A DNA stretch of 62,734 nucleotides, the filler included, from Collodictyon triciliatum (Eukaryota): assembly GCA_043381765.1 (NCBI GenBank). It is 5 parts of 4 records of this genome, joined end to end, with 100 filler letters (N's around TTAATTAATTAA, not from the genome) between each part and the next. Parts side by side here need not be neighbours in the genome. Positions count along the whole stretch, not along the records: positions 1 to 14,312 come from JBHJMP010001853.1; 4 more parts are not named here. One strand, 5' to 3'. Position numbers and translations under genes: made by a program. Shown here one piece after another: positions 1 to 17,492 of the stretch. Position 1 is the first letter of the stretch, and the number at the start of each line of letters is the position of its first letter. The notes beneath the pieces are model-generated. The model saw nothing but the letters and a program-made list of their open reading frames with translations. It was not told the DNA's origin and did no database searches.

Positions 1-79
1 GTTTACAAAAAAGAAGTAGTGGATGAACAGAAAACCGAACTGTAAAAACGTAAAAGAGTACAAAGTCACTTTTATTCCC
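1..79 (+). repeat. Direct repeat copy 1 (may extend left of the window)
   Basis: Matches 4702-4781 with 3 substitutions and a 1-nt indel in a T run. Confidence 0.95.
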
Positions 80-117
80 ACCATGCCCCCTATATTTTAT
101 TTCTCTATTAAATTATT

Positions 118-1224
118 ATGGTTATTAAAAAGACTGATCAAGAATATTTAGAACAAGCCTATCAGTCTACCGCACATACAAACTCAGTCGCCGGTCTTTG
201 GGCACAAGTCAAACAATACGGAATTACTAAAGCCAGTGTCTCTAATTTCCTCAAACAACAGCCAGACTATCAAACACTCCAAGCCAAGAAAAAAGAAAAA
301 AGAACTGCAACTATGGTAAGATATAAACCCGGTTACATTCAGATGGACACCATTGATATCACACCGATGAAAAGTAAAGTAGCTAAACACTTGCTGACTC
401 TTGTTGATATCTTTACCAGAAAGCTCTGGGCGTTTCCACTCAAAAATAAAAGTGCCGATCTTGTCAGTAAAAGACTTACTGAATTTCTTAATCAGTACAA
501 AGTAACAAACACCGTCCAGTCTGATAACGGAGTTGAGTTCAAAAAAGATGTCCCAGAACTTTTAAAAGAACGAGGCGTCAATGAAGTCAAGTCTGCTCCA
601 GCCAATCCGACGACGAACGCATTTGTTGAAAGAGCAAATGGTGTTTTGAAAAGAGCACTTTATGGATATCTCCAGAAAACTGGCAAAGACCCTATTCCAA
701 ATCTCCAAGACTTTGTGGATAGTATTAATTTAGTTAAAAATGAGACGACGCAAGTAGTCCCCGAGGTTGCCATACTGCCAGAGAATAAAGAAAAGATAAT
801 TGAAAATATTACAAAGTACGCAAATAAAAAAGGATCTGCATCCACAAAATTATTAAATGTGGGGGACAAAGTCAGAGTGTTGTTAGAAAAAACAAATATC
901 ACCGCGGCGAAAAAAAACGAACTAAAGCAGAGTAAAGGCTTCCTGCCAAGATACTCAAATGAAATATATACAATAGAAAGTAGAAACACACCCAATGATA
1001 AATTCTCTGCACCAACATATTATTTGAAAGATTATAAAACTGCAAACACAAAAAAGCAACGATTCCTTCAAAGTGACTTATTAAAAATAGATGATACAAT
1101 CACTAAAGGACAGACACATAAACCAGCCGTTGATTTGTTAAAGCATACCAAGGTAGATAGACGCAGCAAAGAAAATAAACAAGACCCAACGTATAGACAA
1201 ACAAGAAGTAGATCAAAAAAATAA
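118..1224 (+). CDS. Polinton/Mavirus-type retroviral-like (rve, DDE) integrase
   Basis: QMDTID, LTLVDIFTRKLWAFPLKNKS, VQSDNGVEF and NAFVERANGVLK give the DDE core; C-terminal VGDKVRV...KGFLPRYSNEIYTI is typical of Polinton integrases; uninterrupted ORF. Confidence 0.93.
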   Translation: MVIKKTDQEYLEQAYQSTAHTNSVAGLWAQVKQYGITKASVSNFLKQQPDYQTLQAKKKEKRTATMVRYKPGYIQMDTIDITPMKSKVAKHLLTLVDIFTRKLWAFPLKNKSADLVSKRLTEFLNQYKVTNTVQSDNGVEFKKDVPELLKERGVNEVKSAPANPTTNAFVERANGVLKRALYGYLQKTGKDPIPNLQDFVDSINLVKNETTQVVPEVAILPENKEKIIENITKYANKKGSASTKLLNVGDKVRVLLEKTNITAAKKNELKQSKGFLPRYSNEIYTIESRNTPNDKFSAPTYYLKDYKTANTKKQRFLQSDLLKIDDTITKGQTHKPAVDLLKHTKVDRRSKENKQDPTYRQTRSRSKK

Positions 1225-1226
1225 TT

Positions 1227-1841
1227 TTATTTCTTAGGGTTAGGGGGTCGTCCTCGTCCACGCTTGATTACAACTTTTGGCTCTGGCTCCGGCTCCGGCT
1301 GCAAAGCCGGTTCTGGCTCTGGCTCTTCTACTTTTCTCTTCTTGTATTTTCTTTTTGATTCAGAAACTATCTTTTCAATTGTCTGCTTCTCTAGCTTCTT
1401 GGCCTCTGCAATATCATCCTTTAGCTTTTCGCTTTCTGCTTCTTGCTTGATCTTTCTTGTTCGTTGCCTACCTTTTACTGCCTTGTCCATACCCTTGGCA
1501 AGAGTTTCTTTTAACGTCTGTTTCGACTTGGCAAAGAAATAAACATCCTCGGGGTTAACCGACCATTTCTTTTTTTTATCCAGCGTAGAAAATCCATAGA
1601 GATCCACTTTTATTTTTTTTATCTCCTTTAAAGTTTCATCCGGCAAATAACTGATATACCCCCCCTTTACTAATTTCGGTTCAGTTTCTTTTTTCTCCAA
1701 ACTATCATTTTGGTATTTTCTAGGTTTTGGAATATAGGTAACAAAGTCATTCACTTTTATATCCTTGGGTTCAATGAACTCCCAATTGTCACTAAAGTCT
1801 TTTGGCAGTTTCGCTTTTATTTCCTCGGGAATCATTACCAT
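1227..1841 (-). CDS. Hypothetical viral protein with N-terminal globular domain, charged coil, EP repeats and C-terminal AT-hook
   Basis: First ATG at 1841 (the ORF track begins at a TTG); ends in KRGRGRPP AT-hook; converges on the integrase with a 2-nt spacer. Confidence 0.75.
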   Translation of the reverse strand: MVMIPEEIKAKLPKDFSDNWEFIEPKDIKVNDFVTYIPKPRKYQNDSLEKKETEPKLVKGGYISYLPDETLKEIKKIKVDLYGFSTLDKKKKWSVNPEDVYFFAKSKQTLKETLAKGMDKAVKGRQRTRKIKQEAESEKLKDDIAEAKKLEKQTIEKIVSESKRKYKKRKVEEPEPEPALQPEPEPEPKVVIKRGRGRPPNPKK

Positions 1842-1871
1842 TATCAATTATTTTATTTTTAGAATTAAACG

Positions 1872-1881
1872 CAACTTAAAG
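1872..1881 (+). promoter_or_regulatory. CAACTTAAAG motif upstream of ORF 1920
   Basis: Identical 10-mer occurs in sense orientation upstream of the TVpol-helicase gene (4519-4528, minus). Confidence 0.4.
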
Positions 1882-1919
1882 TTATCTCACTAAGATAATT
1901 TACGAACAACTCTTTAAAT

Positions 1920-2138
1920 ATGGATTCTCAAACACTCGATGCGAACATAGCCGCTCTAAAATACTTTGGTGTCCCCGCTAAGGACGTCTTTGAAGCTCTC
2001 ATGCGTTCCGCTCGCCGCAAAGAAAGTTTACAAAAACATTATATCAAAAGAAAAACAGAAGAGAAAGAAAAATACAAATGGAGAAACCCCGAGGTCACTG
2101 TGTACATTGATAAACAAGGAAATAAGTCTTATAAATAA
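1920..2138 (+). CDS. Small basic hypothetical viral protein (72 aa)
   Basis: ATG ORF filling the space between neighbours; stop codon lies within a hairpin shared with the convergent TVpol gene. Confidence 0.65.
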   Translation: MDSQTLDANIAALKYFGVPAKDVFEALMRSARRKESLQKHYIKRKTEEKEKYKWRNPEVTVYIDKQGNKSYK

Positions 2139-2163
2139 ATTTGTGCAATTGCACTAATTTATT
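2134..2163. terminator. Palindromic hairpin at convergent 3' ends
   Basis: AATAAATTTGTGCAATTGCACTAATTTATT is a 30-nt palindrome with one mismatched pair and covers both stop codons. Confidence 0.65.
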
Positions 2164-4489
2164 CAATTCGTTGTCTCTTCTGCTGACTCTCGGCAAACTC
2201 GGGAATTGTTGCGCAGACTCCTGGGTTTCTAAGCTTACGGCGAATCTCCATGTAGTTCAAGACATATTTGCTGTGGTGGTTAGTCGTGACATTATATTCT
2301 TTTTTGAATTCGATCCATTCTTTGTTATGACCAAATTTGTTTTTGTCCATTAGCTCATACTTTGGAAAGTATTGGGTCATAAAGAATCTATACAGATCAT
2401 ATAGTTCTGTGTGATACAAATCAAACTTGACACTGTCAAACCAACGATAACGATTAGTATCAATTCCAACAATCTTATTATATTTGTTCATCTCACTTTC
2501 GTTCCAATCCATAAACACATATTCAATAAAACTCTGAATCACTGATTTGTGTGACTCAGCCATTTCTTCCAGCATCTCACACTTTGGCATTTTGTTGAAA
2601 TCAAAACTTGGATTATACATGTTGAGTAATAACAACAAAAACTTTCTATTAAAATCTTCATCATCAGTTTCTGCTGCAAGTTGTTCCTCTTCTGATTTTT
2701 GTAGACGTGATTCAGAACATTCAATCACACAGAATCGGCGCATGTTGTCACGTTCAAATTTGACACCGATGCTTTTGTTTGTGCATAAAAATGTATTGAC
2801 ATAACATTTCTTTTTTTTGGGATCATTGCACATTTTTCTAAGATTGGTATATTGTCGGTCCACTAGGTCCTTAATTTCTCCCTGGAGTCCCTTGACGTTT
2901 TGAAATTCTGCCTCCTCGCAAATAAGTGCAAGGCATCCCTCAAGCATTGCATTGCGATTTCCAAACACCTCTTCAAAATTGCACGGGGCGCGCCAATACT
3001 GTGTTCCTAGAAGTTTGTCTCCAAAATGCAATTTCAAGAAACTTGATTTGCCTGTGCCTCCTTTCTTATTCGTCATAATAATCATCTTCTTAATTTTCTT
3101 GTGCGGGTTATAGATGATGTGCGCCAAGTACTGCAAAAAGTAAATATATGCATCTTGCTTTCCGTTGCACAACAGATTGAATATTTGATGGTAATGCTTT
3201 GATTTTATAAAATCCTCTGCCATTGTTGTGTGATAATGCGTAACATGGATATGTTTAAGATATTCATGATAATTTTCAAAGTCAGTAACTTTTTCGGCAA
3301 ACATTTTTTCAAAGGCAAACCCCGTGAACAAATTATAGTAGGAATAATTCCTAGTATCCATGTAAGGCACAAAATCAAATTTTTCATATTTTCTTTTGCC
3401 GTGCTTGCACAAAAGATTTGTGAATTTAGTGGCATTGGTTAAATTAAATTCTTCAAAATAACATTCTTTGCTAACATGCTCAAATTCTTGTTTATCTACA
3501 CCAATGGTTCTATAAAACTTGTCTCCAACTCTAAAATGAGTTTTTTCAAATTCTTCAATGCCCAGACTCTTATAGAGTACCTCCTGTTTGTCAATCTTTT
3601 CAAAGTCAAACGGGCTCTCCATTGATTTTTCTTTTATGACAACCTGATAACCGGTTTCTTGAAAAATAATTTCCTGACAATAATCTAATATTTCTTGGGG
3701 AAATTCTTTTTCGTTTTCAATTTTACGGACGGCACCCCCGTCGTACATGCCCAGGTCCAGCTGTCTATTTTTTTGTCTGAGTGCATTCTCAAATACAATT
3801 AGACATTCTCTTTCAACACTTTGGAAATAGTAAGACATTGCTCGTCCATACTTGTTATCGTCTTTTTCAAGCATTGGCTTTTTCCCAACTTTTAATTTAT
3901 GCCAATGTGGGACATTGACCCAAACATGTGCCGTGATAATATCGACTTCGTTTTTTAATTTTTTAAAGAATTGGTCTGTGTATGCAATAGGTGGTATTCC
4001 TCCATACAATAAAGTGCAGACATAACTTTTAAAAGTTTCTCGATCAATGTTTAACTTTTCCATGTATTCTTTAAAAATATTATCACGGTTAAAACAATAC
4101 TCTTGTAATGCCTCAACAACAATCCCGTTTTTATTAGCATACTGTAATATGAACGAGGGGTGAGCGTTCACAAAATCCAGGTCGTGGTAATACTTGGATA
4201 GCATTGCGTTACGAACGTCTCGCCAAGTATTTGCCAAACAATCAGTTGGACATACCCTTCCTACACCCCATACCCCCTTATGATTTTGTAATGCACTATA
4301 TTCTTTACCCATAGAATGAATACTAGTATAAGTATACAAATATACTTTAGGGTCAAGAGTGCATTTTCGTGACATTCTAATAAGCTTTTGCTTTATATCT
4401 TTCGGAACAATAGCATCTGAACACTTACACAGAAAGTCAGCGATTTCTTTGTCAAAAATGTAGGTATAGCTCTGGGATATCTGGCTCAT
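2159..4489 (-). CDS. TVpol (PolA-related primase/polymerase) fused to SF3/D5-like helicase
   Basis: Motif A YYHDLDFVNAHP, motif B RETFKSYVCTLLYGG, SYYFQSVE, motif C GMYDG; helicase Walker A GGTGKS, Walker B LICEE, motif C FLCTN, MRRFCVI. Confidence 0.88.
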   Translation of the reverse strand: MSQISQSYTYIFDKEIADFLCKCSDAIVPKDIKQKLIRMSRKCTLDPKVYLYTYTSIHSMGKEYSALQNHKGVWGVGRVCPTDCLANTWRDVRNAMLSKYYHDLDFVNAHPSFILQYANKNGIVVEALQEYCFNRDNIFKEYMEKLNIDRETFKSYVCTLLYGGIPPIAYTDQFFKKLKNEVDIITAHVWVNVPHWHKLKVGKKPMLEKDDNKYGRAMSYYFQSVERECLIVFENALRQKNRQLDLGMYDGGAVRKIENEKEFPQEILDYCQEIIFQETGYQVVIKEKSMESPFDFEKIDKQEVLYKSLGIEEFEKTHFRVGDKFYRTIGVDKQEFEHVSKECYFEEFNLTNATKFTNLLCKHGKRKYEKFDFVPYMDTRNYSYYNLFTGFAFEKMFAEKVTDFENYHEYLKHIHVTHYHTTMAEDFIKSKHYHQIFNLLCNGKQDAYIYFLQYLAHIIYNPHKKIKKMIIMTNKKGGTGKSSFLKLHFGDKLLGTQYWRAPCNFEEVFGNRNAMLEGCLALICEEAEFQNVKGLQGEIKDLVDRQYTNLRKMCNDPKKKKCYVNTFLCTNKSIGVKFERDNMRRFCVIECSESRLQKSEEEQLAAETDDEDFNRKFLLLLLNMYNPSFDFNKMPKCEMLEEMAESHKSVIQSFIEYVFMDWNESEMNKYNKIVGIDTNRYRWFDSVKFDLYHTELYDLYRFFMTQYFPKYELMDKNKFGHNKEWIEFKKEYNVTTNHHSKYVLNYMEIRRKLRNPGVCATIPEFAESQQKRQRIE

Positions 4490-4518
4490 CTTGTTATTGT
4501 AATATCGTATTGATATCT

Positions 4519-4528
4519 CTTTAAGTTG
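4519..4528 (-). promoter_or_regulatory. CAACTTAAAG motif upstream of TVpol-helicase
   Basis: Same 10-mer as 1872-1881, 29 nt before the ATG. Confidence 0.4.
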
Positions 4529-4572
4529 GAAATTTAATAATCTGGGGATATATATTTTTTGTCAATTTATGG

Positions 4573-4690
4573 AATGCCCCCAACTTATACCCCCGTAGTA
4601 TCATTTATATTATTCTTTATCTTATTATATCTTTATATAACAATCTTTATATAAAAATATATAAAGGGGTATTGGGGGCATTGGGGTATT
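4573..4690. promoter_or_regulatory. Origin-like structure: C/G-run inverted repeat around an AT-rich core with an internal hairpin
   Basis: AATGCCCCCAA(CTTA)TACCCC at 4573-4593 versus GGGGTATTGGGGGCATT at 4666-4682; CTTTATATA-AAAA-TATATAAAG hairpin at 4645-4666; ATCTTTATATAA occurs twice. Confidence 0.5.
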
Positions 4691-4701
4691 ACTTTTTAAG
4701 A

Positions 4702-4781
4702 GTTTACAAAAAAGACGTGGTGGATGAACAGAAAACGGAACTGTAAAAACGTAAAAGAGTACAAAGTCACTTTTTATTCCC
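4702..4781 (+). repeat. Direct repeat copy 2
   Basis: Near-identical to 1-79. Confidence 0.95.
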
Positions 4782-4783
4782 CC

Positions 4784-4984
4784 CTATACCCCTCCACCCC
4801 CTTCATCAAAAGTTACACGAAATGGTTCGTCAGCAATAATTTGTAAAATAAAATCATTTTTTATAAAATCTTTTCTGTTTTTATTTGTTTTCTTTTTGGC
4901 TTTTTCTAAAGAATATATAAACAGCTGAAGTTCCTCCCAATTAACGAATTCGTGTGTAATATCATTTATAATTAGTTTGAACAT
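4784..4984 (-). CDS. Small hypothetical viral protein (66 aa)
   Basis: ATG ORF directly downstream of the ATPase and preceded by the conserved 17-nt motif. Confidence 0.6.
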   Translation of the reverse strand: MFKLIINDITHEFVNWEELQLFIYSLEKAKKKTNKNRKDFIKNDFILQIIADEPFRVTFDEGGGGV

Positions 4985-5009
4985 ACAATTCTAAACAAAT
5001 TATTTTTTG

Positions 5010-5744
5010 TCAATAGACTATTTCCGAGTTAAAATTCTTATAGACTTTGGGTTTTCTGGGTTGCAACAGATCGATGAACATAAAACAATAGTTTTCGTTC
5101 GTGCAATATTCTAAAAGTTCGTCAAACTTACTTTGCGATAAATTCGTTAGTTCGTTTAGTGCCTCTCGTTCTCGCTGGTTGCTGGTGTAAAAAGAAATTA
5201 AGTGAGTTGCGTTTTGTCTGAGTTTTGGATTCATCAATCTGATAGCCTGACTCACTATTATGATACTGAGATTATAATGTCGGTGTTTAAGAAAGTTCTT
5301 TAACATATTTTTAGTCGGTCTTTCGAAAACTGTGCTCAAGTCGTCAAGCACCAGGAGGTACTGGTCTTTCTTCCAATCGTCGGGTTTTGTTATATCCTCG
5401 AGTATGTTATCAAATATTTCATCAGTAAAATTATCAAAGCTTCTTTTTTTTGAAAAGCGAACACCCTCATAGCTGACATCGGAAATTTTACCATCCACCA
5501 TATTAGAAGAACAAAAATAACACTTTTCATAATACTTATAATATAATTCTTTTTGACGAAGCAGATTAGCGATTAAAATAGATTTCCCTGAGCCCGTCTT
5601 TGCAGAAATTAACATCAAGTACGGTCTACTCTCGGCCGGGTCAGGAAGCGCCTCCAACAGTATTTTTCTTTTACTTTTTTTTATGGCAGTCAAGGGTTGG
5701 ACCTTGAAATTATTGACTATCTTTTCTTCCATACAGTTATTCAT
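5010..5744 (-). CDS. A32-like (FtsK/HerA) DNA-packaging ATPase; true start possibly 5732
   Basis: Walker A ISAKTGSGKS, Walker B YLLVLDDL, KHRHYNLSIIIVSQ and PKLRQNATH motifs typical of Polinton/virophage/NCLDV packaging ATPases. Confidence 0.93.
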   Translation of the reverse strand: MNNCMEEKIVNNFKVQPLTAIKKSKRKILLEALPDPAESRPYLMLISAKTGSGKSILIANLLRQKELYYKYYEKCYFCSSNMVDGKISDVSYEGVRFSKKRSFDNFTDEIFDNILEDITKPDDWKKDQYLLVLDDLSTVFERPTKNMLKNFLKHRHYNLSIIIVSQAIRLMNPKLRQNATHLISFYTSNQREREALNELTNLSQSKFDELLEYCTNENYCFMFIDLLQPRKPKVYKNFNSEIVY

Positions 5745-5753
5745 AAAATAAAA

Positions 5754-6107
5754 TCAACGGAACAATACATTGGGGTCAAACTCGTATTCTCTTGTTTGTT
5801 CTTTGTCTACAGTTTCCTGTTTGGCTTTTTTATTCATTCGTTTGTTCATTTTATAAGCCTCTTCTTGTGTCAAGTATTGCACTATCTTATCGACTTTTGA
5901 ATTGATTGCGCTGTAATCGTGTGAAGGCTGCTTCGCTTTCTCGTATGTTTTTATTGTTTGAGCAATCTCTTTATTCTTTTTCTTTGCCTCTGTGGCTTTG
6001 ACTTGGATTTTTGCGAGATGAGCCTTTTGCTTTTCAGAAGCAACTCGTTTTGTTTTTCTTTTGTTTTTTTCTATGGTTTCCATATCGTTATCTGAATCAG
6101 AGTTCAT
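5754..6107 (-). CDS. Basic coiled-coil hypothetical viral protein (117 aa)
   Basis: ATG ORF co-directional with the ATPase; KRVASEKQKAHLAK basic helix; preceded by the 17-nt motif. Confidence 0.7.
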   Translation of the reverse strand: MNSDSDNDMETIEKNKRKTKRVASEKQKAHLAKIQVKATEAKKKNKEIAQTIKTYEKAKQPSHDYSAINSKVDKIVQYLTQEEAYKMNKRMNKKAKQETVDKEQTREYEFDPNVLFR

Positions 6108-6141
6108 AACCTTTCCAAGAAAATAATTTCTGAGTTAGATT
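6108..6141. promoter_or_regulatory. Bidirectional promoter made of two back-to-back 17-nt motifs
   Basis: The 34-nt intergenic region is exactly ATTTTCTTGGAAAGGTT (minus) plus AATTTCTGAGTTAGATT (plus), each abutting an ATG. Confidence 0.6.
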
Positions 6142-6906
6142 ATGGATAGAGCATATTACATTCACGTGGATTCAGCCAACAGATCAACCGGAAGTATATC
6201 AGACTTTAACTTTGCCACGACGCAGAACCGGTATGTTGCAAGCTCAGGTAAAGTTGCACTTGAAAGTATTCAAATCCCTTATGCCGTGCACAATGTTACT
6301 AGTGCCAATAATACATTAGTCTTTATTTGTAGTGTTAACAACAGCCCCGTTTCATACAATGTGTCACTTGAAACTGGATTACAAACCATCAATGAAATAG
6401 TTACTGACATCAGAACAAAGATAAACGCGGCAACCGCAGGCCAGGGAGCCGCAGCAGAAGTTACTGTTTCATTTTTAAGTGGCAAGCAAAAGATAGCAAT
6501 CAAAGCAGCAGGTCCAAATGTTTCATATGAACTGTTTGTGAATTCTAGTACATGTAGAGAGCTAATAGGACTAACAGCAAATCTTACGTTCAACACTAGT
6601 TTCGTTGAGCTGCAGAATATGGTCAATGTCCGTCCGTTTGATTATGTGTATCTAGTCAGCCCGAATATTCAGAGTTCAAGTTTTGCATCAAACATAGGGG
6701 GCAATGGCATCGTCGCAAAGATTCCGCTGAGTGTTGGTTCACGGTACTCGAATTATTATGAGGTGAATGACAATATCCTAGAGAATCTGATGGACTGCTC
6801 GTATATTCCGTTCAGCTGGAATTTCCGGCTGGTTGATAGACTGGGCAATACAATCAACCAACTTCAGGACTACAGCTTCACGCTGCGGATTATTCCAGAC
6901 TTTTAA
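6142..6906 (+). CDS. Probable minor capsid protein (penton, single jelly-roll)
   Basis: IHVDSANR..G...DF, ALESIQIPY..HNV...NNTLVF, DYVYLVS, IVAKIP and FRLVDRLGN...YSFTLRI follow the PLV/NCLDV penton pattern; beta-rich, 254 aa, next to ATPase and fibre. Confidence 0.72.
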   Translation: MDRAYYIHVDSANRSTGSISDFNFATTQNRYVASSGKVALESIQIPYAVHNVTSANNTLVFICSVNNSPVSYNVSLETGLQTINEIVTDIRTKINAATAGQGAAAEVTVSFLSGKQKIAIKAAGPNVSYELFVNSSTCRELIGLTANLTFNTSFVELQNMVNVRPFDYVYLVSPNIQSSSFASNIGGNGIVAKIPLSVGSRYSNYYEVNDNILENLMDCSYIPFSWNFRLVDRLGNTINQLQDYSFTLRIIPDF

Positions 6907-6921
6907 TTTCTTGCTTAATGT
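6905..6921 (+). promoter_or_regulatory. 17-nt motif before fibre gene
   Basis: AATTTCTTGCTTAATGT-ATG; 15/17 identical to 14099-14115. Confidence 0.6.
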
Positions 6922-9309
6922 ATGGGTTTTTTCATAACAGAAGAAAAGGAACTACCGGAATTTTCCAGTCAAGACGCAAACAAAGTATTAAAAGTCGATC
7001 CGAGCGGGGTTTATCTACAGTGGCTACAGGAGACAACGACACCGGCTGAGCTTCCAAGTCAAACGGGGAATGCTGGACGTTTGCTGACAACAAATGGCTC
7101 AACTCCGTCGTGGACTAATGGTCCTATAGGATTGGGTACAACTGGGGCTGCTACTCCGATGCTTTGGTTTGGAAGCAATAACAACGGCTTTGCGGAAGGA
7201 TGGAGTGCCGGTGGCGGGGCAACGGGAGTAAGCGAGATTACAAATGGCGCAGTATGTTGTACATTTCAAAATGGGGCTATTAGACTGCCTGGTGGTAATC
7301 CAATAAGAAGCAATGGCAACGCGGCATCTCGGTTTCAGTGTACCAGTGATGTACCAAATATGCAAAATTCTGTGACTACCGGATCTGTTGGAACCGATCG
7401 TATTGTTAATGTGAGTTCAGCCAATTGGGCATCAACTTCATTAGACTTGGTAGCCAGCAATTTAAATGATACACCAGGCTCACTTAATGCTAGCCAGATG
7501 GGTATTGAGATAAAACAAAATCAAATCGTGTTTAATGGAGCTGGGATAACGGCATCAGGCACTACTTTGCCAGCTCGTGTCACACGAATGACTATTGATA
7601 ACACAGAAATAAGTACGAGTTTACCATTGGCTGTAGGCAACTATATGTCTGCGTCAAGTATTATTATAGCCACGACTGGCTTTGTGATGAATCAACCGGG
7701 AACAGAAGCCGCTCAAGCTTACACATTTCGTAATTTTGACACTAGTGATTCCAATCGAAATAATAGTAATAGACAAGGAATATATAGTCCTGCAATTGAA
7801 GCAATAGCTATATCAACAAACTCTGTAAGCAATATATCAGGAAGTACCGCTGGAAGACCCAATGCAGTAGAGCGCTTTAGGGTCGATGACAATTATGTGA
7901 CTGTGACGAATTCATTAAATCTTTCACGAGTAGGGTCAGCAGCTGAACCTAACCTTTTGTTTGGAGACAATACAACAATCCCAGCTACAAGTCGAACTGG
8001 TATCTGGGGCTCGGATGACAATATATTTTTTAGCACGGGAGGAGTTCAGAGATTCAGTATTGGCAATGCAAATGCTGCGATCTCAGGAAATTTAATTATG
8101 GCTACTCCAGCGATGGGTGTCACAGGAGCAAACGGCGGCATTGGTGTCGTGGCAGGTATAGGTGCAACCGCCGGATTGTATTCAACAACAAGTACAAATT
8201 CAGGCATTCGATTTCAAGACACTAATGCCAATGTACGTATTTTAACTAATGGAATGAATGTAATAGATTGCACGCAGGTGTCTGGTGCAGGTATAGTAAG
8301 TATGGAAGAAGCAATTACAATGAAAAAAGCTGTACGTTTTCCTTTTCAGTCTCGAAATCATACTAATATTTCTATAGGTACAACAAGTCCTATGATGATA
8401 CGAGCGTTGATATCTGACAATGTACCAAATACTTTTGATTTACCTTCATTAGGATTGAAATTAACTGGCCAAACCCATATTATTATTCCTTATAAAGATG
8501 CAGCCAGTACAGGCACGTTAGCTATGTGGACTGGTGGCGGAACGGGACACGCAATTCACGTTATGCATAATTCAACAAAAACTGTTGTCACAGGTAGCAG
8601 CACATATCCATTAATAGAGGGTGGGGTATACACTTGTGTGTGGCATTGGTTATCTTCAACTGCAGGCCTACTTCAAGGCATCTGGTATGCATGGATTGAT
8701 GGGCTGGCAGCGACATTAACTGTGCCCGACCCGTTTGTAATTGGTACAAATTTAGATTTTGTTACAGGAGGAAATGCAGCTGCTAGAATACAAGGGATAA
8801 ACTCAGGAGCAAACTCTGAAGTAGGTATGGTTATTAATGGGAGCATGAGAACTAAATTTACAGTAAATGATACCGAAGTTCAAAACTCGCTACGATTGTT
8901 TAAGGCGCGGATTACTGATTGGATAATTCACGACAGCGGCACGCACAAAGTGAGTCGAAATTCTCCTAGTAAAATCATATTAACAAAACAGGGTTCAGGA
9001 AGCTCAAATGCAGTAATTGTTTTTCCGGCAAGTACCGATGCCCCGGATGGACTAGAAATTCAAGTCATGGTTTGGATGTTGTCGGGTAGAAGTGGCTCAG
9101 GGGTTCAGATTGTGCGGTTTGATTCAGCCAGTCCAGCAAATAACGCCTTTGTGCTTGGTTCCAGTGGCACAGGTATCACACTTGGAGGAACAAGTTACAC
9201 CGTAACAGAAGGAACCAATTTTACAGCTACCAATTTCCGTACCACTATAGGACGCTGGATGGTTGATTCAACTCGATTTAACTGTACTCCTGCTTTATCA
9301 TCCGCGTAA
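6922..9309 (+). CDS. Phage tail-fibre-like virion fibre/spike protein (795 aa)
   Basis: G/S/T/N-rich beta protein; LPSQTGNAGRLLTTNGSTPSW and GSAAEPNLLF...TGIW...IFFSTGGVQRFSI resemble phage tail-fibre repeats; directly follows the penton. Confidence 0.7.
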   Translation: MGFFITEEKELPEFSSQDANKVLKVDPSGVYLQWLQETTTPAELPSQTGNAGRLLTTNGSTPSWTNGPIGLGTTGAATPMLWFGSNNNGFAEGWSAGGGATGVSEITNGAVCCTFQNGAIRLPGGNPIRSNGNAASRFQCTSDVPNMQNSVTTGSVGTDRIVNVSSANWASTSLDLVASNLNDTPGSLNASQMGIEIKQNQIVFNGAGITASGTTLPARVTRMTIDNTEISTSLPLAVGNYMSASSIIIATTGFVMNQPGTEAAQAYTFRNFDTSDSNRNNSNRQGIYSPAIEAIAISTNSVSNISGSTAGRPNAVERFRVDDNYVTVTNSLNLSRVGSAAEPNLLFGDNTTIPATSRTGIWGSDDNIFFSTGGVQRFSIGNANAAISGNLIMATPAMGVTGANGGIGVVAGIGATAGLYSTTSTNSGIRFQDTNANVRILTNGMNVIDCTQVSGAGIVSMEEAITMKKAVRFPFQSRNHTNISIGTTSPMMIRALISDNVPNTFDLPSLGLKLTGQTHIIIPYKDAASTGTLAMWTGGGTGHAIHVMHNSTKTVVTGSSTYPLIEGGVYTCVWHWLSSTAGLLQGIWYAWIDGLAATLTVPDPFVIGTNLDFVTGGNAAARIQGINSGANSEVGMVINGSMRTKFTVNDTEVQNSLRLFKARITDWIIHDSGTHKVSRNSPSKIILTKQGSGSSNAVIVFPASTDAPDGLEIQVMVWMLSGRSGSGVQIVRFDSASPANNAFVLGSSGTGITLGGTSYTVTEGTNFTATNFRTTIGRWMVDSTRFNCTPALSSA

Positions 9310-9339
9310 ACAATTTTTATTAATAGTAAGAATTGTTTA
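9307..9339. terminator. Hairpin at convergent 3' ends
   Basis: TAAACAATTTTTATT-AAT-AGTAAGAATTGTTTA: 15-bp stem (2 G:U on the plus strand) running from one stop codon to the other. Confidence 0.7.
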
Positions 9340-12300
9340 GTAGATTGCCTGCGAAAGATTCTTGATAGGTGTGCCAAAGACACGCTCTGTGACAGGCCCG
9401 TAAGATTTGCGGCCAAATGCACCGGAGCTGACAAAGAACTGGGCGTCTCTGGCCGAGCCGAATGCGCGCTTCTGGCCCCCGCCGTGGACGACGTAATTGA
9501 GCCCCTCTCGTCGGATGGTGTAATTTGATTGGCCCGGAATAATGATGGTACCGAGGTCAGAGTTGACGACCCTGCCCAGGTTTTGCTGGGGGAGAAAAGC
9601 GACGTTTCTCAGTTTCTGGTCAGTCGTGTCTCCGTATTTCGGCTTGTACTTGAGAGGCCATGACCCTTCTTTACGGTATATTTTTAATGCGCTTTGTAGG
9701 CCTGGAATGTTGCCTTCAAAAAATAATTCTAGTATGTCCATAAGCGCACTAGTGTCAGGAGTTAAATCGACGTATTCAATATTAAATTCTCTCATGGCTG
9801 CTTCAAAAGTTTGCTTATCTACTATACCATAATCATTAGCTCTTGCTGGATTACCCTGTTCGATATACCTCGATACTTTTCTAGCAAAGCGTGATTGATT
9901 GCCGTATTCACGGTTGTCCGACACTTGAGGACGCATTGGGTTAAATATTGGCTGTTGACTACCGCGTCCATTGCCGCCAGGAGGGCCGCCACCAGGAGGG
10001 CCGCCTGCTCCAGGACCAAACATTGGAACTGCCCCTATAATAGGACTAGCAGTAGCTGCTTGCATTGATTGTCTTCTATTTGCTGCCATATTATTACCAC
10101 CGAAAATATTTCCTCGCACTGCATCACCTGCCGCCTGAAAAATGCCAGCGCCAGCGCCAGCTGCAGCTTGTAAAAAGCCAGCACCAGCATTAAAAACAGC
10201 CCCAGCCATTGCTCGTGCTGCAGCCAAATTTCCAGGAACAACTGGAGACAAAGGTGGCAGACCAGGGGGTGTTGGTTGACGTCGACGCACAGCGGGACTT
10301 TGAAACGGTACCACAGCTGCGGGGCGAGGAGGGCTAGTAGCTAATTGTTGTATTCTAGGGTTTGCTTGCAAGTTTTGAGGTGCATTCGGAGGCAATGCTG
10401 CAAAATCATCAACAAATTGCCAAGGGCCAGGCACCATAAAAGGACTAGGAGGGGGTCCAGGGGTAGCTTGTCTCACAGCAATTTGTCGTTGTGCACTTTG
10501 GGGAGTATCCTCGCGAGGAGCTCTTCCTACTGGTGTCCCCAGCTCATCTGTGGGAACTGCAGGAAACGCAGCGTTATAATAAAAAGTAGCTGTATCAGCA
10601 AGTTGTTCTCCTCGGGCTTTTAAATCGGCTGCAAATCTTCGTAGATCTTCTATTGTTTGAGCTTGTTCAATAACAAGCGGATTTTCAAGATTCAATAATG
10701 CATTTAAATCATTAACCTGTTCTTTAAGATCCTCTATTTCGACATCTTTGGTGTCAGGTGCGTCTTGCAACAAAATTAAATTTTGTACTTGAGTTTCTAA
10801 TTCCCGAATTCTATTCAGTTGTATTTCTGCATTTAATGCTTGTCTCTTAGCTTTATAACTATCCTGAACTCTTCTTAAATTATCTCTTCGCCTGTTTAAT
10901 TCTTCTGTGTTAAAACTAGAACTATGATTAGGTCTTTTTGGTGTTCTTGGTGTCTTTGGTGTCTTTGTTACTGAAGATGCAACTGAAATGTTTGTTGTAT
11001 CAAGTCCGACTCTATAGTTGCCTGGTATAATCTTGTTGAGAGCTGCACGTTGTTCCTCATGTCGGGCACGTTCATTTTGCATTTGCACACCCATGTCCTG
11101 TAATCTCTTTTGATAAATTTCTTTGTCTTGCATCAAGCCAGTTGCCAGTTGAGACGCAGTGTTAACAGTGTCTTGAAGTTCTTGTATATATTGGTTTTGA
11201 TCACTCATTGCATCATTCAATGTATCGATTTGTTCATATGCGTTATCTAAGTTTTTTTGTAAAAGCTCTATGTGTTCTGCTAATTTTTTAATTAATGCAT
11301 CTGCTTCTATTTCTATATTTGTAGGTGTTATATCTTTATCTAGAACCAAATCTTTAGATTTTTCTTTAGTTTTACTATTTTCTATTTTATCTGTTTCATT
11401 TTGTTTTTTTATTTCATTCATTTTAGCACTCATATCAGCTAATTTTTGTGTTATGTTGGTAATACTGACACTCTTGCTAGTATCGGGAACAGCAGTCCTG
11501 TTTGGTGTTTCTTTTGGACTAAATAATTCTCTTGCAGATTGTTTAATTGGTGATGGACTCTTAAAATCAGTTTTACTCGTTGTACCAAATCCAGAACGCT
11601 GAGTAAATGTAGGCGTGCTTTGTGCTATAATTGACCCTGCACTCATATTTGATGCATCAGGATCAAAATCTATCGTAGATTCGTTGAGCATAGACTCTGT
11701 CTGTGCCTGTGTAAATGATCCTGATTGATTCAGCTGTTGTAGGCTTTGATTTAAAAAAGACTGTGCAGGATCTAATATCATACTCTGGGTTGTTTGGTCA
11801 GGGTTAAATGTAGTGTTTGGTGATGCCGCTCCCAGGACTTGAGGACTAAATAATATGTTAGATGAACTCCTTGCCCTAGCAGCATAATTGGATTGATTAA
11901 AATATTGTGAGCGCTCAAATGTAGTAAACAAATTCCGCATGGACTGTGATAAAGCCGCACGAGAAATATGCCCACTTGTTTGTATCATGCTAACAATTGA
12001 CCGTGCAAGTAAATTACTAAAATTCATATTATCAAATTGGTTTAACTTGGCATCCAGTGAATCGTTTGCAATTGCTTCTAAATCTTTTTCTTCACGTTCT
12101 ATTAATTCCTTATAACCTTCATTTAGTTCCACAACTGGGATTAGTGCTAAATCTTCTGCCCTAACAACCTCTGCTCTAGTTTTCATTACTGCTTGACAAT
12201 TTTGTTGAAAATCTCTTACGTTGCGAATGTATTCTTGTAGCTCTGTTGGCAATGACTGATAAAAATTAAAAACACCTTGGTCTGTTGGTTCAGTCGCGTT

Positions 12301-14082
12301 TCGCACCAAAAAATCTCTGATAAATACTTGTAGATCTCTGGCTAATTTATTACCAAATTCAATTAACTCTCCCTGGCTGAGAGCATTTGTAATTTGTCGA
12401 AATAGTTCTTCCTCGTTTATTACTGCTGCTGGTGTTGATAACGCAATTATTGCATCATTAACTTTTTCTTCCCCCTGCTTATCTTGGGCAATTGTTTCGT
12501 CTGTATTTTGTATGTATCTTCTGTGATATTCCTGCAAAATTTCTTTATTTAGTCTAAGTCTTTGCACTTCTTGTCCTTTTCTTAACTTTTCAGCCATTTC
12601 CTCTTCAGCCTGTTTTTTATTTTTAAGAGCTGCCTCTCTTTTGATTCGTTTTTCTTCTTCAATCTTTTTTAATTGTATCTCTCGTGCCGCGTTTCGTGCT
12701 AAAACTCTTTTTTCACGTTCATTTGCCTCTAGTGCTTGTTTATATTCTATTTCAAGTTCAGCAATAAACCTATAATACGCAACATTCCAACATATTAATT
12801 CCAAAATTTCTTCTTCATCATATTCTAATTCTTCGCCAGCAGCAAAGCTATAAAGATATAATCGCACGTCTTCGTCAAATTCATTGTCCATGTAATTCAT
12901 AAACTCAAATTCCTTTTCGTCACCAAAATCTTTTGGAACGTTTTCTTTATAACTAAACCCTCTGTGTTTATACCACTCTTTAAAGCAAAGATTCATACCT
13001 GTGTAAACTTTGGATGCTACTCTCTGACCACGCACATTTTTTTTCTGAAGGTATCCTATTGTCAAATACTCTTTTTTATTTCCAATTTCTGCTCTAACGT
13101 CATCTGATAATCTTTGCCACCTTTCCTTTCCTTTTTGACTTTCCATTGCCTCGTCAAATTGTTCAAAATACGCATTTAGCTGATCCATTGTTGTATCCAA
13201 TTGTCCCTTATCTTCTTCTTCCTGTACTGTCTCAGCATCCTCTACATCTTTCTCTGCTACAAGGTCTTCCAATTCTTGATCTATTAGTGCAGCTTCTTTT
13301 TTTAGTTCTTCATTAATTTGCGATTGTTTTATTCTATTTGCATTTTGCATATCTATTTTACTCATGCCATCTGGAGGGTCCATACTATGTAACACTATAT
13401 ATTCCAACACCACCGTACTCAGACTAGTATCATTTGGATTTTCCTCTAGTAAACGATTTAGCTCCTTTTCTCTATTCAAACCTTCTTTTTGATTATAAAT
13501 TCTACGTCTATCTGGATCAGGAGCTCTATACACCTCATCTTCTATAGCTCTTTCCATTTGTTCATTAGTCATACCAACTGGAGGGTCTGATTTTAATGCC
13601 AATATATATTTCCAACGTGGTATTTCTGGATTGTCTGCTTCTGCCTCATTTAATTGATTTCTATAAAATTCAAGTTCATCATCAGTGTATTTTTTAACTT
13701 CAGGATCATATGGAAATGTGATGTAATATGGTTCTAATAAATCAGCCCTTCCCTGATTTTTTTTAGGGTCCAAAGTATCTATTTCTCTTGGCAGTTTTGA
13801 TTTTACTATATTGTCATACAATTTCTCTAATTGTATAAAGTCATCCATGTCTAATTTTGTTTCTTCACGTCTAGCTCTATAATATAAAACATGAAAATCA
13901 TTTAATGCTTGATTAAAATTTTTACTTGGTTTTTGCAGATAATATAAAATATAATTAAATTTATACCCAATTAATGAATCATTATCAAATAAACTTTCAA
14001 TATTGTTTTCTTTAAAGTGTTGTGTATACCAAGGTATTTTATTTTTTTTCAACTGTTCTATGGTATAATATTTGGAGCTCAT
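9337..14082 (-). CDS. Large coiled-coil/low-complexity viral protein (~1581 aa)
   Basis: Uninterrupted ORF; first ATG (MSSKYY) at 14082, and the upstream extension in the ORF track overlaps the divergent gene; E/K/Q-rich heptads plus S/T/P- and A/G/P-rich tracts. Confidence 0.8.
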   Translation of the reverse strand: MSSKYYTIEQLKKNKIPWYTQHFKENNIESLFDNDSLIGYKFNYILYYLQKPSKNFNQALNDFHVLYYRARREETKLDMDDFIQLEKLYDNIVKSKLPREIDTLDPKKNQGRADLLEPYYITFPYDPEVKKYTDDELEFYRNQLNEAEADNPEIPRWKYILALKSDPPVGMTNEQMERAIEDEVYRAPDPDRRRIYNQKEGLNREKELNRLLEENPNDTSLSTVVLEYIVLHSMDPPDGMSKIDMQNANRIKQSQINEELKKEAALIDQELEDLVAEKDVEDAETVQEEEDKGQLDTTMDQLNAYFEQFDEAMESQKGKERWQRLSDDVRAEIGNKKEYLTIGYLQKKNVRGQRVASKVYTGMNLCFKEWYKHRGFSYKENVPKDFGDEKEFEFMNYMDNEFDEDVRLYLYSFAAGEELEYDEEEILELICWNVAYYRFIAELEIEYKQALEANEREKRVLARNAAREIQLKKIEEEKRIKREAALKNKKQAEEEMAEKLRKGQEVQRLRLNKEILQEYHRRYIQNTDETIAQDKQGEEKVNDAIIALSTPAAVINEEELFRQITNALSQGELIEFGNKLARDLQVFIRDFLVRNATEPTDQGVFNFYQSLPTELQEYIRNVRDFQQNCQAVMKTRAEVVRAEDLALIPVVELNEGYKELIEREEKDLEAIANDSLDAKLNQFDNMNFSNLLARSIVSMIQTSGHISRAALSQSMRNLFTTFERSQYFNQSNYAARARSSSNILFSPQVLGAASPNTTFNPDQTTQSMILDPAQSFLNQSLQQLNQSGSFTQAQTESMLNESTIDFDPDASNMSAGSIIAQSTPTFTQRSGFGTTSKTDFKSPSPIKQSARELFSPKETPNRTAVPDTSKSVSITNITQKLADMSAKMNEIKKQNETDKIENSKTKEKSKDLVLDKDITPTNIEIEADALIKKLAEHIELLQKNLDNAYEQIDTLNDAMSDQNQYIQELQDTVNTASQLATGLMQDKEIYQKRLQDMGVQMQNERARHEEQRAALNKIIPGNYRVGLDTTNISVASSVTKTPKTPRTPKRPNHSSSFNTEELNRRRDNLRRVQDSYKAKRQALNAEIQLNRIRELETQVQNLILLQDAPDTKDVEIEDLKEQVNDLNALLNLENPLVIEQAQTIEDLRRFAADLKARGEQLADTATFYYNAAFPAVPTDELGTPVGRAPREDTPQSAQRQIAVRQATPGPPPSPFMVPGPWQFVDDFAALPPNAPQNLQANPRIQQLATSPPRPAAVVPFQSPAVRRRQPTPPGLPPLSPVVPGNLAAARAMAGAVFNAGAGFLQAAAGAGAGIFQAAGDAVRGNIFGGNNMAANRRQSMQAATASPIIGAVPMFGPGAGGPPGGGPPGGNGRGSQQPIFNPMRPQVSDNREYGNQSRFARKVSRYIEQGNPARANDYGIVDKQTFEAAMREFNIEYVDLTPDTSALMDILELFFEGNIPGLQSALKIYRKEGSWPLKYKPKYGDTTDQKLRNVAFLPQQNLGRVVNSDLGTIIIPGQSNYTIRREGLNYVVHGGGQKRAFGSARDAQFFVSSGAFGRKSYGPVTERVFGTPIKNLSQAIY

Positions 14083-14098
14083 AATATAACTTATATAA

Positions 14099-14115
14099 AA
14101 TTTCTTGGCTAATGT
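14099..14115 (+). promoter_or_regulatory. 17-nt motif before ORF 14116
   Basis: AATTTCTTGGCTAATGT-ATG. Confidence 0.6.
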
Positions 14116-14312
14116 ATGATTGTTGATGTTAGAAAAGCAAGCAGAGGTGTTGGTCGCTTTCTTACCCGGCACACGGACAACGCACTAAACAAACTGCAAC
14201 GATTAGACAAAGCCTACTCGGATTTGAATCGGGCAAGCGGTGGGCTGGTCGAGTTGGGGCTGCAGGGAACAGGAATCAAACCTGCATTCCAGACAATTGC
14301 CAACCCGCTGGT
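14116..14312 (+). CDS. Hypothetical viral protein, truncated by gap
   Basis: ATG preceded by the conserved motif; open to the contig end; basic amphipathic N-terminus. Confidence 0.6.
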
Positions 14313-14412
14313 NNNNNNNNNNNNNNNNNNNNNNNNNNNNNNNNNNNNNNNNNNNNTTAATTAATTAANNNNNNNNNNNNNNNNNNNNNNNNNNNNNNNN
14401 NNNNNNNNNNNN
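14313..14412. other. Artificial 100-bp contig linker (N44-TTAATTAATTAA-N44)
   Basis: Same six-frame-stop linker recurs at 25330-25429, 39670-39769 and 54009-54108. Confidence 0.95.
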
Positions 14413-17446: not shown

Positions 17447-17492
17447 CAATTACAATTACAATTACAATTACAATTACAATTACAATTACAAT

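What the first reader, a model, noticed from the sequence alone, without database searches (positions are those of the whole stretch)
1..14312. Intact-looking Polinton-like virus/virophage in a protist assembly with an unusual gene set
Seen: uninterrupted ORFs for rve integrase, TVpol-SF3 helicase, A32 ATPase, penton-like protein, fibre and a giant coiled-coil protein. Known: Polintons and Mavirus pair rve integrase with protein-primed PolB, whereas Sputnik and many PLVs pair TVpol-helicase with a tyrosine recombinase. Inference: this element combines the Polinton integration enzyme with the Sputnik/PLV replicase and may be an undescribed, recently active lineage.
Basis: partly seen in the sequence, partly recalled or inferred. 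Interest (0 to 1): 0.88.

Follow-up and report, generated by a model that had tools for sequence, protein, structure and literature searches.

The report
Partial freshwater Polinton-like virus contig
This stretch is most of the genome of a small Polinton-like DNA virus of a kind already described, sitting on its own contig with its major capsid gene and any link to a host missing, so it is real but fairly ordinary.

Summary
The ORFs are real. They are an rve (DDE) integrase, a PolA-like (TV-Pol)-SF3 helicase replicase, an A32 packaging ATPase, a well-supported penton protein, a modular 795-aa fibre-like protein and a 1581-aa ORF. Coding density is 95%.

Three parts of the reading fail.
1. The window is an artificial chain of contigs joined by N44-TTAATTAATTAA-N44 spacers. 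Bases 1-14312 are therefore a stand-alone contig, and no host junction, TIR or TSD is visible.
2. The element is not intact. No major capsid protein gene is present. The last ORF is cut at codon 65 of a 119-aa protein. The left end breaks inside a ~90-bp repeat. A metagenome contig runs 2,084 nt past the right end.
3. Pairing rve with a polymerase-helicase fusion already fits the published mosaicism of Polinton-like viruses.

Pieces 99-100% identical occur in the freshwater and aquaculture metagenomes laid on it, so this is a circulating virus lineage.

Verdict: a new member of a known kind, of modest interest.

The parts
1..89 (+). Non-coding leader upstream of the integrase. It is the left copy of a ~90-bp direct repeat, and the contig begins exactly at the repeat, which suggests an assembly break.
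   Evidence: 1-89 matches 4702-4792 at 92% identity over 91 columns, E 3e-30.
118..1224 (+). rve-family (retroviral-type DDE) integrase, 368 aa.
   Evidence: Pfam rve 2e-10, 41.3 bits against a cut-off of 32.6. PHROG transposase 3e-12. PDB retroviral integrases down to 4.3e-7. D77, D136 and E172 present.
1227..1841 (-). 204-aa basic protein with a PEPEPE tract and a C-terminal RGRGRP (AT-hook-like) motif. It may bind DNA.
   Evidence: Sequence. No Pfam hit above cut-off. The AT-hook reading is recalled, not tested.
1920..2138 (+). 72-aa ORF of unknown role.
   Evidence: No Pfam hit.
2159..4489 (-). Replicase, 776 aa. The N-terminal half is a PolA-like TV-Pol domain (R78, D105, R150xxxK154, D250). 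The C-terminal half is a D5-like SF3 helicase (Walker A 474-482, Walker B 522-528, motif C 567-572).
4540..4700 (.). AT-rich non-coding region bracketed by the inverted repeat AATGCCCCCAA / TTGGGGGCATT. It is a candidate origin or divergent promoter, upstream of the replicase.
   Evidence: 11-nt arms, 100% complementary, 88 nt apart. (DNA fold z -3.41). (all 3 window matches of ATGCCCCC lie in the element's non-coding DNA; 0.72 expected).
4702..4792 (+). Internal copy of the ~90-bp direct repeat.
4784..4984 (-). 66-aa ORF of unknown role.
5010..5744 (-). A32-like (FtsK/HerA-type) genome-packaging ATPase, 244 aa. Walker A at 48-55, Walker B at 130-135.
   Evidence: Pfam Pox_A32 7e-9, 35.9 bits against a cut-off of 22.8. 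PHROG terminase large subunit 5e-14. Motifs.
5754..6107 (-). 117-aa lysine-rich ORF of unknown role.
6142..6906 (+). Penton (minor capsid, single jelly-roll) protein, 254 aa.
   Evidence: 121 representative relatives. 18 of 59 aligned relatives match DUF5901. The profile hits PBCV-1 P1 at 4.2e-21. AF2 pLDDT 91.5. Foldseek: mavirus penton 2e-10, Sputnik 6e-9, PBCV-1, adenovirus penton bases. BFVD: TM 0.81-0.76, including Tetraselmis viridis virus S1.
6922..9309 (+). 795-aa G/S/T/N-rich modular protein, read as a vertex fibre or receptor-binding protein.
   Evidence: 24 homologues. Shuffled modules, and a conserved N-terminus MGFFITEEKE in 12 of 20 aligned sequences. No family or PDB match. The function is inferred.
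9337..14082 (-). 1581-aa ORF. Residues 1-700 are charged and helical-looking. Residues 700-900 are S/T/N/Q-rich. Residues 900-1200 are charged. Residues 1200-1400 are P/G/A-rich. The C-terminal ~190 aa look globular. Function unknown.
   Evidence: Covered by pieces of contigs in all four metagenome runs laid.
14116..14312 (+). First 65 codons of a conserved 119-aa glycine-rich protein, cut by the contig end.
   Evidence: four 119-aa homologues at 80-95% identity.
14313..14412 (.). Artificial spacer N44-TTAATTAATTAA-N44 joining unrelated contigs. It is not part of the virus.
   Evidence: The same spacer lies at 25330-25429, 39670-39769 and 54009-54108.

Best explanation
Bases 1-14312 are a separate assembly contig holding roughly four fifths of the genome of a Polinton-like virus (PLV) that circulates in fresh water.

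Predicted roles, all inferred from family membership:
- The rve DDE integrase inserts the linear genome into a host chromosome.
- The TV-Pol(PolA-like)-SF3 helicase fusion primes, copies and unwinds the genome without a protein-primed PolB.
- The A32-type ATPase packs DNA into an icosahedral capsid.
- The 254-aa penton forms the vertices of that capsid.
- The 795-aa modular protein is probably a vertex fibre that sets host attachment.
- The 1581-aa protein has no known function.

The major capsid protein gene and the genome ends are not on the contig. They are expected in about 3 kb that the assembler lost. The left end stops inside a ~90-bp repeat and the right end cuts a gene. Nothing here shows that the element is integrated or which cell carries it.
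For: - The contig stands alone: spacers recur four times, and no other part of the window resembles it.
- Core genes are identified.
- The penton is firm.
- TV-Pol is supported by three lines. The invariant residues R78, D105, R150xxxK154 and D250 stand in the order that Iyer et al. 2008 give for the family. Ranks 1-6 of 48,161 chains in the unbiased fold search are all family-A polymerases, aligned to residues 94/108-290. The best BFVD matches are virophage replication proteins of the same length, from Qinghai Lake virophage (3.9e-10) and Zamilon (2.3e-8).
- The right end is truncated: the end ORF is 65 of 119 codons. Metagenome record 29 of run X5 covers 13606-14312 and continues 2,084 nt further.
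- Relatives suggest a ~17 kb genome. Helicase relatives (33% identity) and fibre relatives sit on contigs of 17,173-17,215 bp.
- The virus circulates. Run X1 covers 29 of 30 bins, and 40 of its 167 laid pieces are at least 99% identical. X2, X4 and X5 cover 23, 26 and 18 bins.
Against: - No MCP was found, so assignment to PLVs rather than another small double-jelly-roll virus group rests on the penton, the ATPase and the gene content.
- The N-terminal polymerase domain has no significant HMM hit.
- The replicase model is poor (pLDDT 45.9).
- The fold matches are modest (Z 6.1-6.4). The tool warns that scores below 8 can reflect only a common arrangement.
- The fibre role has no direct support.
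- None of the 10 predicted proteins looked up is in the 15-billion protein collection. Relatives of the integrase, ATPase and giant ORF were not surveyed.
Confidence: 0.8

Rival explanations
1. It is an endogenous, integrated PLV in the nuclear genome of the assembled eukaryote, recently inserted by its own rve integrase.
For: The contig comes from a eukaryotic assembly; the neighbouring contigs carry GT92, R3H and RING genes. The integrase has an intact DDE triad. The element's GC content (0.379) lies within the range of the other contigs, 0.34-0.43. The passages read say that protist genomes often carry many such insertions (PMC10120064).
Against: No host flank, TIR or TSD lies on the contig. 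The junction at 14313 is an artificial spacer. No second copy is in the window. Near-identical DNA in several metagenomes fits a free virus, or a contaminant of the culture, equally well.
Confidence: 0.35
2. It is a virophage in lifestyle: a PLV that replicates only alongside a giant virus, as PgVV/Gezel-14T does.
For: The replicase resembles those of Sputnik-type virophages. The penton family overlaps NCLDV pentons: DUF5901 in 18 of 59 relatives, and PBCV-1 P1 at 4e-21. One fibre-module relative lies on an 83,121-bp contig.
Against: No cysteine protease or virophage-type MCP lies in the 14.3 kb. No giant-virus promoter motif was tested. Lifestyle cannot be read from sequence.
Confidence: 0.25
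3. The contig is an assembly chimera, or a recent recombinant, of two elements joined at the ~90-bp repeat. One is an integrase-replicase cassette (1-4792) and the other a morphogenetic module (4792-14312).
For: Direct repeats at 1-89 and 4702-4792 bracket exactly the integrase-to-replicase block. In runs X2, X4 and X5, contigs that match from 4841-4989 rightwards continue to the left in at least 245 nt of unlike sequence (table 7).
Against: Run X1 holds both halves, with pieces at 99-100% identity, although these pieces are too short to bridge the boundary. A helicase relative and a fibre relative both lie on contigs of 17,173 bp, probably the same contig. Loose ends are common all along the element: 24 are shown and 112 more are not. 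Those near 4800-4990 are therefore not special.
Confidence: 0.12
4. The 795-aa ORF next to the penton is the major capsid protein, and the element is complete in its structural genes.
For: It sits directly after the penton gene, where many PLVs carry the MCP. PLV MCPs often escape Pfam.
Against: Its relatives swap whole modules and carry 1-3 copies of an N-terminal repeat, and only 13 columns are invariant. That is fibre-like behaviour, not that of a double jelly-roll core. A 20-sequence profile finds nothing in the PDB at E up to 1, whereas the neighbouring penton profile finds NCLDV pentons at 4e-21.
Confidence: 0.08

Closest known systems
PgVV-group Polinton-like viruses (PgVV/Gezel-14T, PLV-YSL1, PLV-RED1) as described by Yutin et al. 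2015 (PMC4642659, passages read)
   Same: Small dsDNA element with an A32 ATPase, a penton and a TVpol-S3H fusion replicase. No maturation protease was found.
   Different: Those PLVs are described as lacking rve integrase; some carry an OLV11-like tyrosine recombinase. Here an rve integrase is present. The MCP could not be compared because it is missing.
NCLDV-like PLV clusters (Zora/VC102, VC218, Zephyrvirus) of bioRxiv 10.64898/2026.06.19.733378 (section 6 read)
   Same: The lineage circulates in fresh water. RVE is common in Zora and VC218 (57% and 62%). Zephyrvirus has TV-Pol replicases and a large ORF. The penton family here overlaps NCLDV pentons.
   Different: No Mriya48, HUH endonuclease, VLTF3 or lipase domain was detected here. 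The inferred genome (~17 kb) is smaller than the 20-30 kb given for those clusters. Membership needs the MCP and an ATPase tree, neither of which I could make.
Sputnik-type virophages (Sputnik, Zamilon, Qinghai Lake virophage)
   Same: The replicase has the same length and architecture, and these are the best BFVD matches. The penton fold matches the Sputnik penton at 6e-9.
   Different: Per the literature passages read, virophages carry a cysteine protease and a virophage-type MCP, and Sputnik-like ones a tyrosine-type integrase. Here the integrase is an rve type and no protease was found.
Polintons/Mavericks and Mavirus
   Same: rve integrase, A32 ATPase and a penton with the same fold. The mavirus penton is the top PDB match at 2e-10.
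   Different: No protein-primed PolB and no Ulp1-like protease are on the contig.
Tlr1 element of Tetrahymena
   Same: It pairs an rve integrase with a non-PolB polymerase-helicase fusion and PLV-type capsid genes (PMC4642659 and PMC11161782 passages).
   Different: Tlr1 carries a superfamily 1 (Tlr1-like) helicase fusion. Here the helicase is a D5-like SF3 and the polymerase is PolA-like.

Membership tests
Polinton-like viruses (PLV) | [quoted passage not shown] | tested here: not met
   No MCP candidate lies among the 11 ORFs. However, the contig is truncated at both ends, so absence from the genome is not shown.
Polinton-like viruses (PLV) | Single jelly-roll penton (mCP) | tested here: met
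Polinton-like viruses (PLV) | A32/FtsK-type packaging ATPase | tested here: met
   Pox_A32 at 35.9 bits against a cut-off of 22.8. Walker A and B present.
Polinton-like viruses (PLV) | No capsid maturation protease | tested here: inconclusive
   None was found in the 14.3 kb, but about 3 kb are missing.
Polinton/Maverick (Polintoviricetes) | [quoted passage not shown] | tested here: not met
   No PolB hit in any ORF. The replicase is PolA-like plus S3H.
Polinton/Maverick (Polintoviricetes) | rve integrase | tested here: met
Polinton/Maverick (Polintoviricetes) | Terminal inverted repeats and 5-6 bp target site duplication | not testable with these tools
   Both contig ends are assembly breaks. 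No long inverted repeat lies within 1-14312.
Virophages | Virophage-type MCP and cysteine protease | tested here: not met
   Neither was found on the contig. The contig is incomplete.
Virophages | Replication dependent on a co-infecting giant virus | not testable with these tools
   Needs culture work.
TV-Pol (Iyer, Abhiman & Aravind 2008) | A conserved arginine, two palm aspartates and an RxxxK fingers motif, in that order | tested here: met
   R78, D105, R150xxxK154 and D250 are invariant in 5 of 5 aligned sequences. The feature list comes from PMC2579912. This is evidence from motifs only.
TV-Pol (Iyer, Abhiman & Aravind 2008) | Statistically significant similarity to family-A polymerases or known TV-Pols | tested here: inconclusive
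   No Pfam, PHROG or tblastn hit for residues 1-370. hhalign against a 506-aa ORF of Microcystis phage LMM01 gave E 0.0023 and probability 12.7%. The VIA search gave Z 6.1-6.4, but its top six hits are all PolA. Foldseek on BFVD hits virophage replicases at 4e-10 to 2e-8, using a low-confidence model.
TV-Pol (Iyer, Abhiman & Aravind 2008) | C-terminal D5-like helicase fusion (the Sputnik V13 architecture) | tested here: met
   DUF5906 at 476-585. PHROG 1156 at 426-740. Phage P4/D5-type primase-helicases by tblastn.
Tlr1-like elements | Superfamily 1 (Tlr1-like) helicase fusion | tested here: not met
   The helicase is SF3.

The most novel reading that the evidence does not exclude
The contig could be the first foothold in a cellular genome assembly for a freshwater lineage of PLVs whose morphogenetic genes resemble those of NCLDVs. 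For one such group, Zephyrvirus, the 2026 framework preprint reports no endogenous example and no known host.

In addition, its integrase-replicase block (1-4792) is bracketed by ~90-bp direct repeats next to a G/C-clamped AT-rich inverted repeat. That block could be a discrete cassette through which PLVs swap replication and integration modules by recombination.
Probability: 0.12. Interest if true: 0.6.

Novelty: new member of a known kind. Interest (0 to 1): 0.3.

Why it matters
If the missing ~3 kb and the host junctions were recovered, the element could link a widespread freshwater PLV lineage to a host organism. It could also give a concrete example of how replication and integration modules move between small eukaryotic DNA viruses.

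As it stands, it adds one more partial PLV genome with a gene mix that current literature already accommodates. It also shows that adjacency in this record cannot be read as genomic context, because the contigs are joined artificially.

Tried and rejected
- **Whole genome.** None is held for this window.
- **DNA of close relatives.** Four of the six scans found nothing related: IMG/VR with the ATPase, the fibre and the 119-aa protein, and GTDB genomes with the 119-aa protein and the fibre. Two scans with the replicase profile, IMG/VR and JGI metagenomes, gave four distant loci, L001-L004. These share only the helicase (22-27% identity), and in L001 also the ATPase (27%). The fibre alignment was too variable to scan with.
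- **Exact look-up.** None of 10 predicted proteins is in the protein collection.
- **Earlier scan notes.** None by place, sequence or words.
- **Sputnik record.** Not in the phage collection.
- **Replicase N-terminus.** No Pfam, PHROG or phage tblastn hit. The PDB sequence searches gave nothing useful.
- **Giant ORF and fibre.** No PDB or Pfam match.
- **ATPase against the PDB.** Only weak P-loop hits.
- **Penton-fibre binding.** The complex prediction (two pentons plus fibre residues 1-100) returned 'no answer', score 0.02 against a mark of 0.34. This is evidence neither way.
- **Expression.** No RNA holder was listed among the sequencing runs.
- **Uneven metagenome cover.** Parts of the left module have no cover in X2 and X5. 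I do not treat this as absence.
- **RNA genes.** No tRNA or Rfam family in the window.
- **Promoter-like motifs.** TTGACAAAAAATA is not enriched: 13 matches at up to 2 mismatches against 9.6 expected. The shared leader of the fibre and the 119-aa gene has only two copies, and the pattern was derived from them.
- **My initial recollection.** I recalled that Tlr1 combines rve with TVpol-S3H. This was wrong: the passages read say Tlr1 has a superfamily 1 helicase fusion.
- **Supplementary tables.** Those of the PLV papers could not be opened. They may list genomes with exactly this gene set.

Full report
**What is in the sequence.** Under the standard code, bases 1-14312 carry eleven ORFs that fill 95% of the DNA.

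| Coordinates | Strand | Product |
|---|---|---|
| 118-1224 | + | 368-aa integrase |
| 1227-1841 | - | 204-aa basic protein |
| 1920-2138 | + | 72-aa ORF |
| 2159-4489 | - | 776-aa replicase |
| 4784-4984 | - | 66-aa ORF |
| 5010-5744 | - | 244-aa ATPase |
| 5754-6107 | - | 117-aa lysine-rich ORF |
| 6142-6906 | + | 254-aa penton |
| 6922-9309 | + | 795-aa fibre-like protein |
| 9337-14082 | - | 1581-aa ORF |
| 14116-14312 | + | ORF that runs off the end |

**The record is a chain of unrelated contigs.** Position 14313 opens a 100-bp block made of 44 N, TTAATTAATTAA and 44 N. The same block recurs at 25330, 39670 and 54009, alongside two ordinary gaps of 410 and 716 N. TTAATTAATTAA gives a stop codon in every frame, so this is a spacer that someone inserted to string contigs together.
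- The eukaryotic genes to the right (GT92, R3H, RING) lie on other contigs and say nothing about where the element sits.
- BLAST of the element and its proteins against the rest of the window finds nothing.
- Element GC (0.379) lies within the range of the other contigs, 0.34-0.43.

**Core enzymes.**
- *Integrase.* It passes Pfam's rve threshold (41.3 bits against 32.6). It matches foamy-virus and HTLV integrases in the PDB down to 4e-7. It keeps D77, D136 and E172.
- *ATPase.* It passes Pox_A32 (35.9 bits against 22.8) and has Walker A and B motifs.
- *Replicase, C-terminal half.* It is a D5-like SF3 helicase, by DUF5906 (1.3e-10), PHROG 'DNA primase' (1.5e-17) and phage P4/D5-type primases.

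**Is the N-terminal half a TV-Pol?** No HMM library or tblastn search recognises residues 1-370. Three weaker lines agree that it is.
1. In an alignment with the only four relatives the word search found (46-30% identity), R78, D105 (DFVNxH), R150xxxK154 and D250 (YDG) are invariant. They stand in the order that Iyer et al. 2008 give for TV-Pol and family-A polymerases (text read).
2. The AlphaFold model is poor overall (pLDDT 45.9). Even so, an all-against-all fold search of 48,161 PDB representatives puts six family-A polymerases at ranks 1-6: M. smegmatis Pol1, Klenow, Pol nu, Pol theta, apicoplast Pol and T7 DNA polymerase. Scores are Z 6.1-6.4 with 165-188 residues aligned. Five of the six align to residues 94/108-290, and Pol theta aligns to 31-293. 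The tool warns that Z below 8 can reflect only a common arrangement.
3. Foldseek against predicted viral structures gives, as best named matches, the Qinghai Lake virophage 'DNA helicase/primase/polymerase' (3.9e-10) and the Zamilon 'DNA replication protein' (2.3e-8). Both are of similar length (839 and 778 aa); TM scores are low.

A profile comparison with a 506-aa ORF beside two transposase genes in Microcystis phage LMM01 aligned the same motifs, but only at E 0.0023 and probability 12.7%. I only guess that this ORF is the TV-Pol the paper mentions for that phage. I accept 'TV-Pol-S3H' as likely, at about 0.8.

**Penton.** This is the best-supported structural gene.
- The full HMMER search found 121 cluster representatives, most about 250 aa long.
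- 18 of the 59 I aligned match DUF5901.
- The profile hits the PBCV-1 penton P1 at 4.2e-21, and also the EhV-201 penton.
- The model built on that alignment is confident (pLDDT 91.5).
- Its best PDB matches are the mavirus penton (2e-10), the Sputnik penton (6e-9), PBCV-1 P1 and many adenovirus penton bases.
- In BFVD it reaches TM 0.76-0.81, including a protein of the PLV Tetraselmis viridis virus S1.

**The 795-aa protein.** It has 24 relatives in the word search, up to 83% identical. None of the 20 I aligned, including the window's own protein, has any Pfam domain. The alignment shows blocks that are present, absent or exchanged between relatives, and one to three copies of an N-terminal repeat. 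Twelve of 20 sequences share the start MGFFITEEKE, and only 13 columns are invariant. It remains an inference. The alternative that it is the MCP is unlikely, because its 20-sequence profile finds nothing in the PDB, although I could not fold it.

**The 1581-aa ORF.** It has no family or PDB match. Its composition divides it into charged stretches (1-700 and 900-1200), an S/T/N/Q-rich stretch, a P/G/A-rich stretch (1200-1400) and a C-terminal region that looks globular. 'Coiled coil' is plausible for parts of it but was not tested.

**The element is not intact.**
- No MCP is present.
- The last ORF is the first 65 codons of a conserved 119-aa protein; four relatives are 80-95% identical.
- The contig starts exactly where a ~90-bp sequence repeated at 4702-4792 begins (92% identity). 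Assemblers typically break at such repeats.
- Relatives of the replicase and of the fibre lie on contigs of 17,173-17,215 bp. About 3 kb are therefore probably missing, enough for an MCP and the genome ends.
- In run X5, a 2,791-nt contig covers 13606-14312 and continues for 2,084 nt.

**It circulates.** Twenty of the 24 listed sequencing runs, from 13 studies, hold part of bases 4400-14312. None holds half of it. I laid four runs.
- X1 (labelled freshwater metagenome) covers 29 of 30 bins. Of its 167 pieces, 40 are at least 99% identical.
- X2 (freshwater) covers 23 bins, X4 (no label) 26 and X5 (aquaculture) 18.
- Contigs in these runs also show skipped or replaced segments inside the fibre gene (7113-7888 and 8567-9307). 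This matches the module shuffling seen in the proteins.

**Is it one molecule?** The direct repeats bracket the integrase-to-replicase block. In X2, X4 and X5 some contigs match only from 4841-4989 rightwards and continue to the left in unlike sequence. This hints at a module boundary there. However, loose ends are frequent along the whole element, X1 holds both halves, and a relative of 17,173 bp appears to carry both a helicase homologue and a fibre homologue. I give assembly chimerism or a recent recombinant joint about 0.12.

**Comparison with what is known.**
- Yutin et al. [quoted passage not shown]
- The 2025 cryptophyte study links TVpol-S3H with tyrosine recombinase in its cluster C1, where rve occurs in 2 of 298 elements, and finds rve dominant in other clusters.
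- Bellas et al. 2023 describe protist endogenous elements carrying 'pPolB or primase-helicase' together with 'YR or rve'.
- Two 2026 preprints state that replicase classes have moved widely among these viruses. They report that RVE is found in 57-62% of some NCLDV-like PLV clusters. They also say that Zephyrvirus members carry TV-Pol and a large ORF, come mostly from freshwater and marine metagenomes, and have no known endogenous copy or host.

For all these papers I read the passages or sections named, not the whole texts, and I could not open the supplements. Supplementary tables may list genomes with exactly this gene set. On this basis the combination is uncommon but sits inside a described pattern.

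**Verdict.** This is a real partial genome of a Polinton-like virus, a new member of a known kind. The strongest new facts are negative for the original claim: the contig stands alone, is cut at both ends and lacks the MCP. The open points worth a follow-up are the host link and the repeat-bracketed integrase-replicase block.

Noticed in passing
window 14313-14412, 25330-25429, 39670-39769, 54009-54108: Identical artificial spacers (N44-TTAATTAATTAA-N44) join at least five contigs. Any finding in this record that relies on neighbourhood across these points is unsafe.
   Followed up: yes
window 14415-14708 (+): The next contig opens with the C-terminal 98 codons of an HNH_3 endonuclease (Pfam 2e-6, 27.8 bits against a cut-off of 24.8). 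It is cut by the contig start and lies 700 bp from a eukaryotic GT92 gene. It could be the edge of another viral or mobile insertion.
   Followed up: partly
window 1-89 and 4702-4792: A ~90-bp direct repeat (92% identical) brackets the integrase-to-replicase block. The left copy is cut by the contig start, so the repeat may be longer.
   Followed up: partly
window 4540-4700: An AT-rich spacer is clamped by the inverted repeat AATGCCCCCAA / TTGGGGGCATT (DNA fold z -3.41). All 3 window matches of ATGCCCCC lie in the element's non-coding DNA, against 0.72 expected. It is a candidate origin or protein-binding site.
   Followed up: partly
window 6905-6924 and 14099-14118: The fibre gene and the 119-aa gene share an almost identical 20-nt leader that ends in the start codon (AATTTCTTGnnTAATGTATG). 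It may be a late-gene promoter or leader, but there are only two copies.
   Followed up: partly
protein P0041: A 710-aa relative that shares a fibre module (82% identity over 15% of the query) lies on an 83,121-bp contig. That is far larger than a PLV, so it could be a giant virus or a host genome. I could not read it.
   Followed up: no
window 1227-1841 (-): The 204-aa protein ends in a PEPEPE tract followed by RGRGRP, an AT-hook-like motif (a recalled resemblance, not tested).
   Followed up: no
window 17420-18540 and 24148-25122: The neighbouring eukaryotic contig holds dense micro- and minisatellites. It also holds an exon encoding about a dozen tandem NQYNQPPPPM(A/T)G repeats.
   Followed up: no
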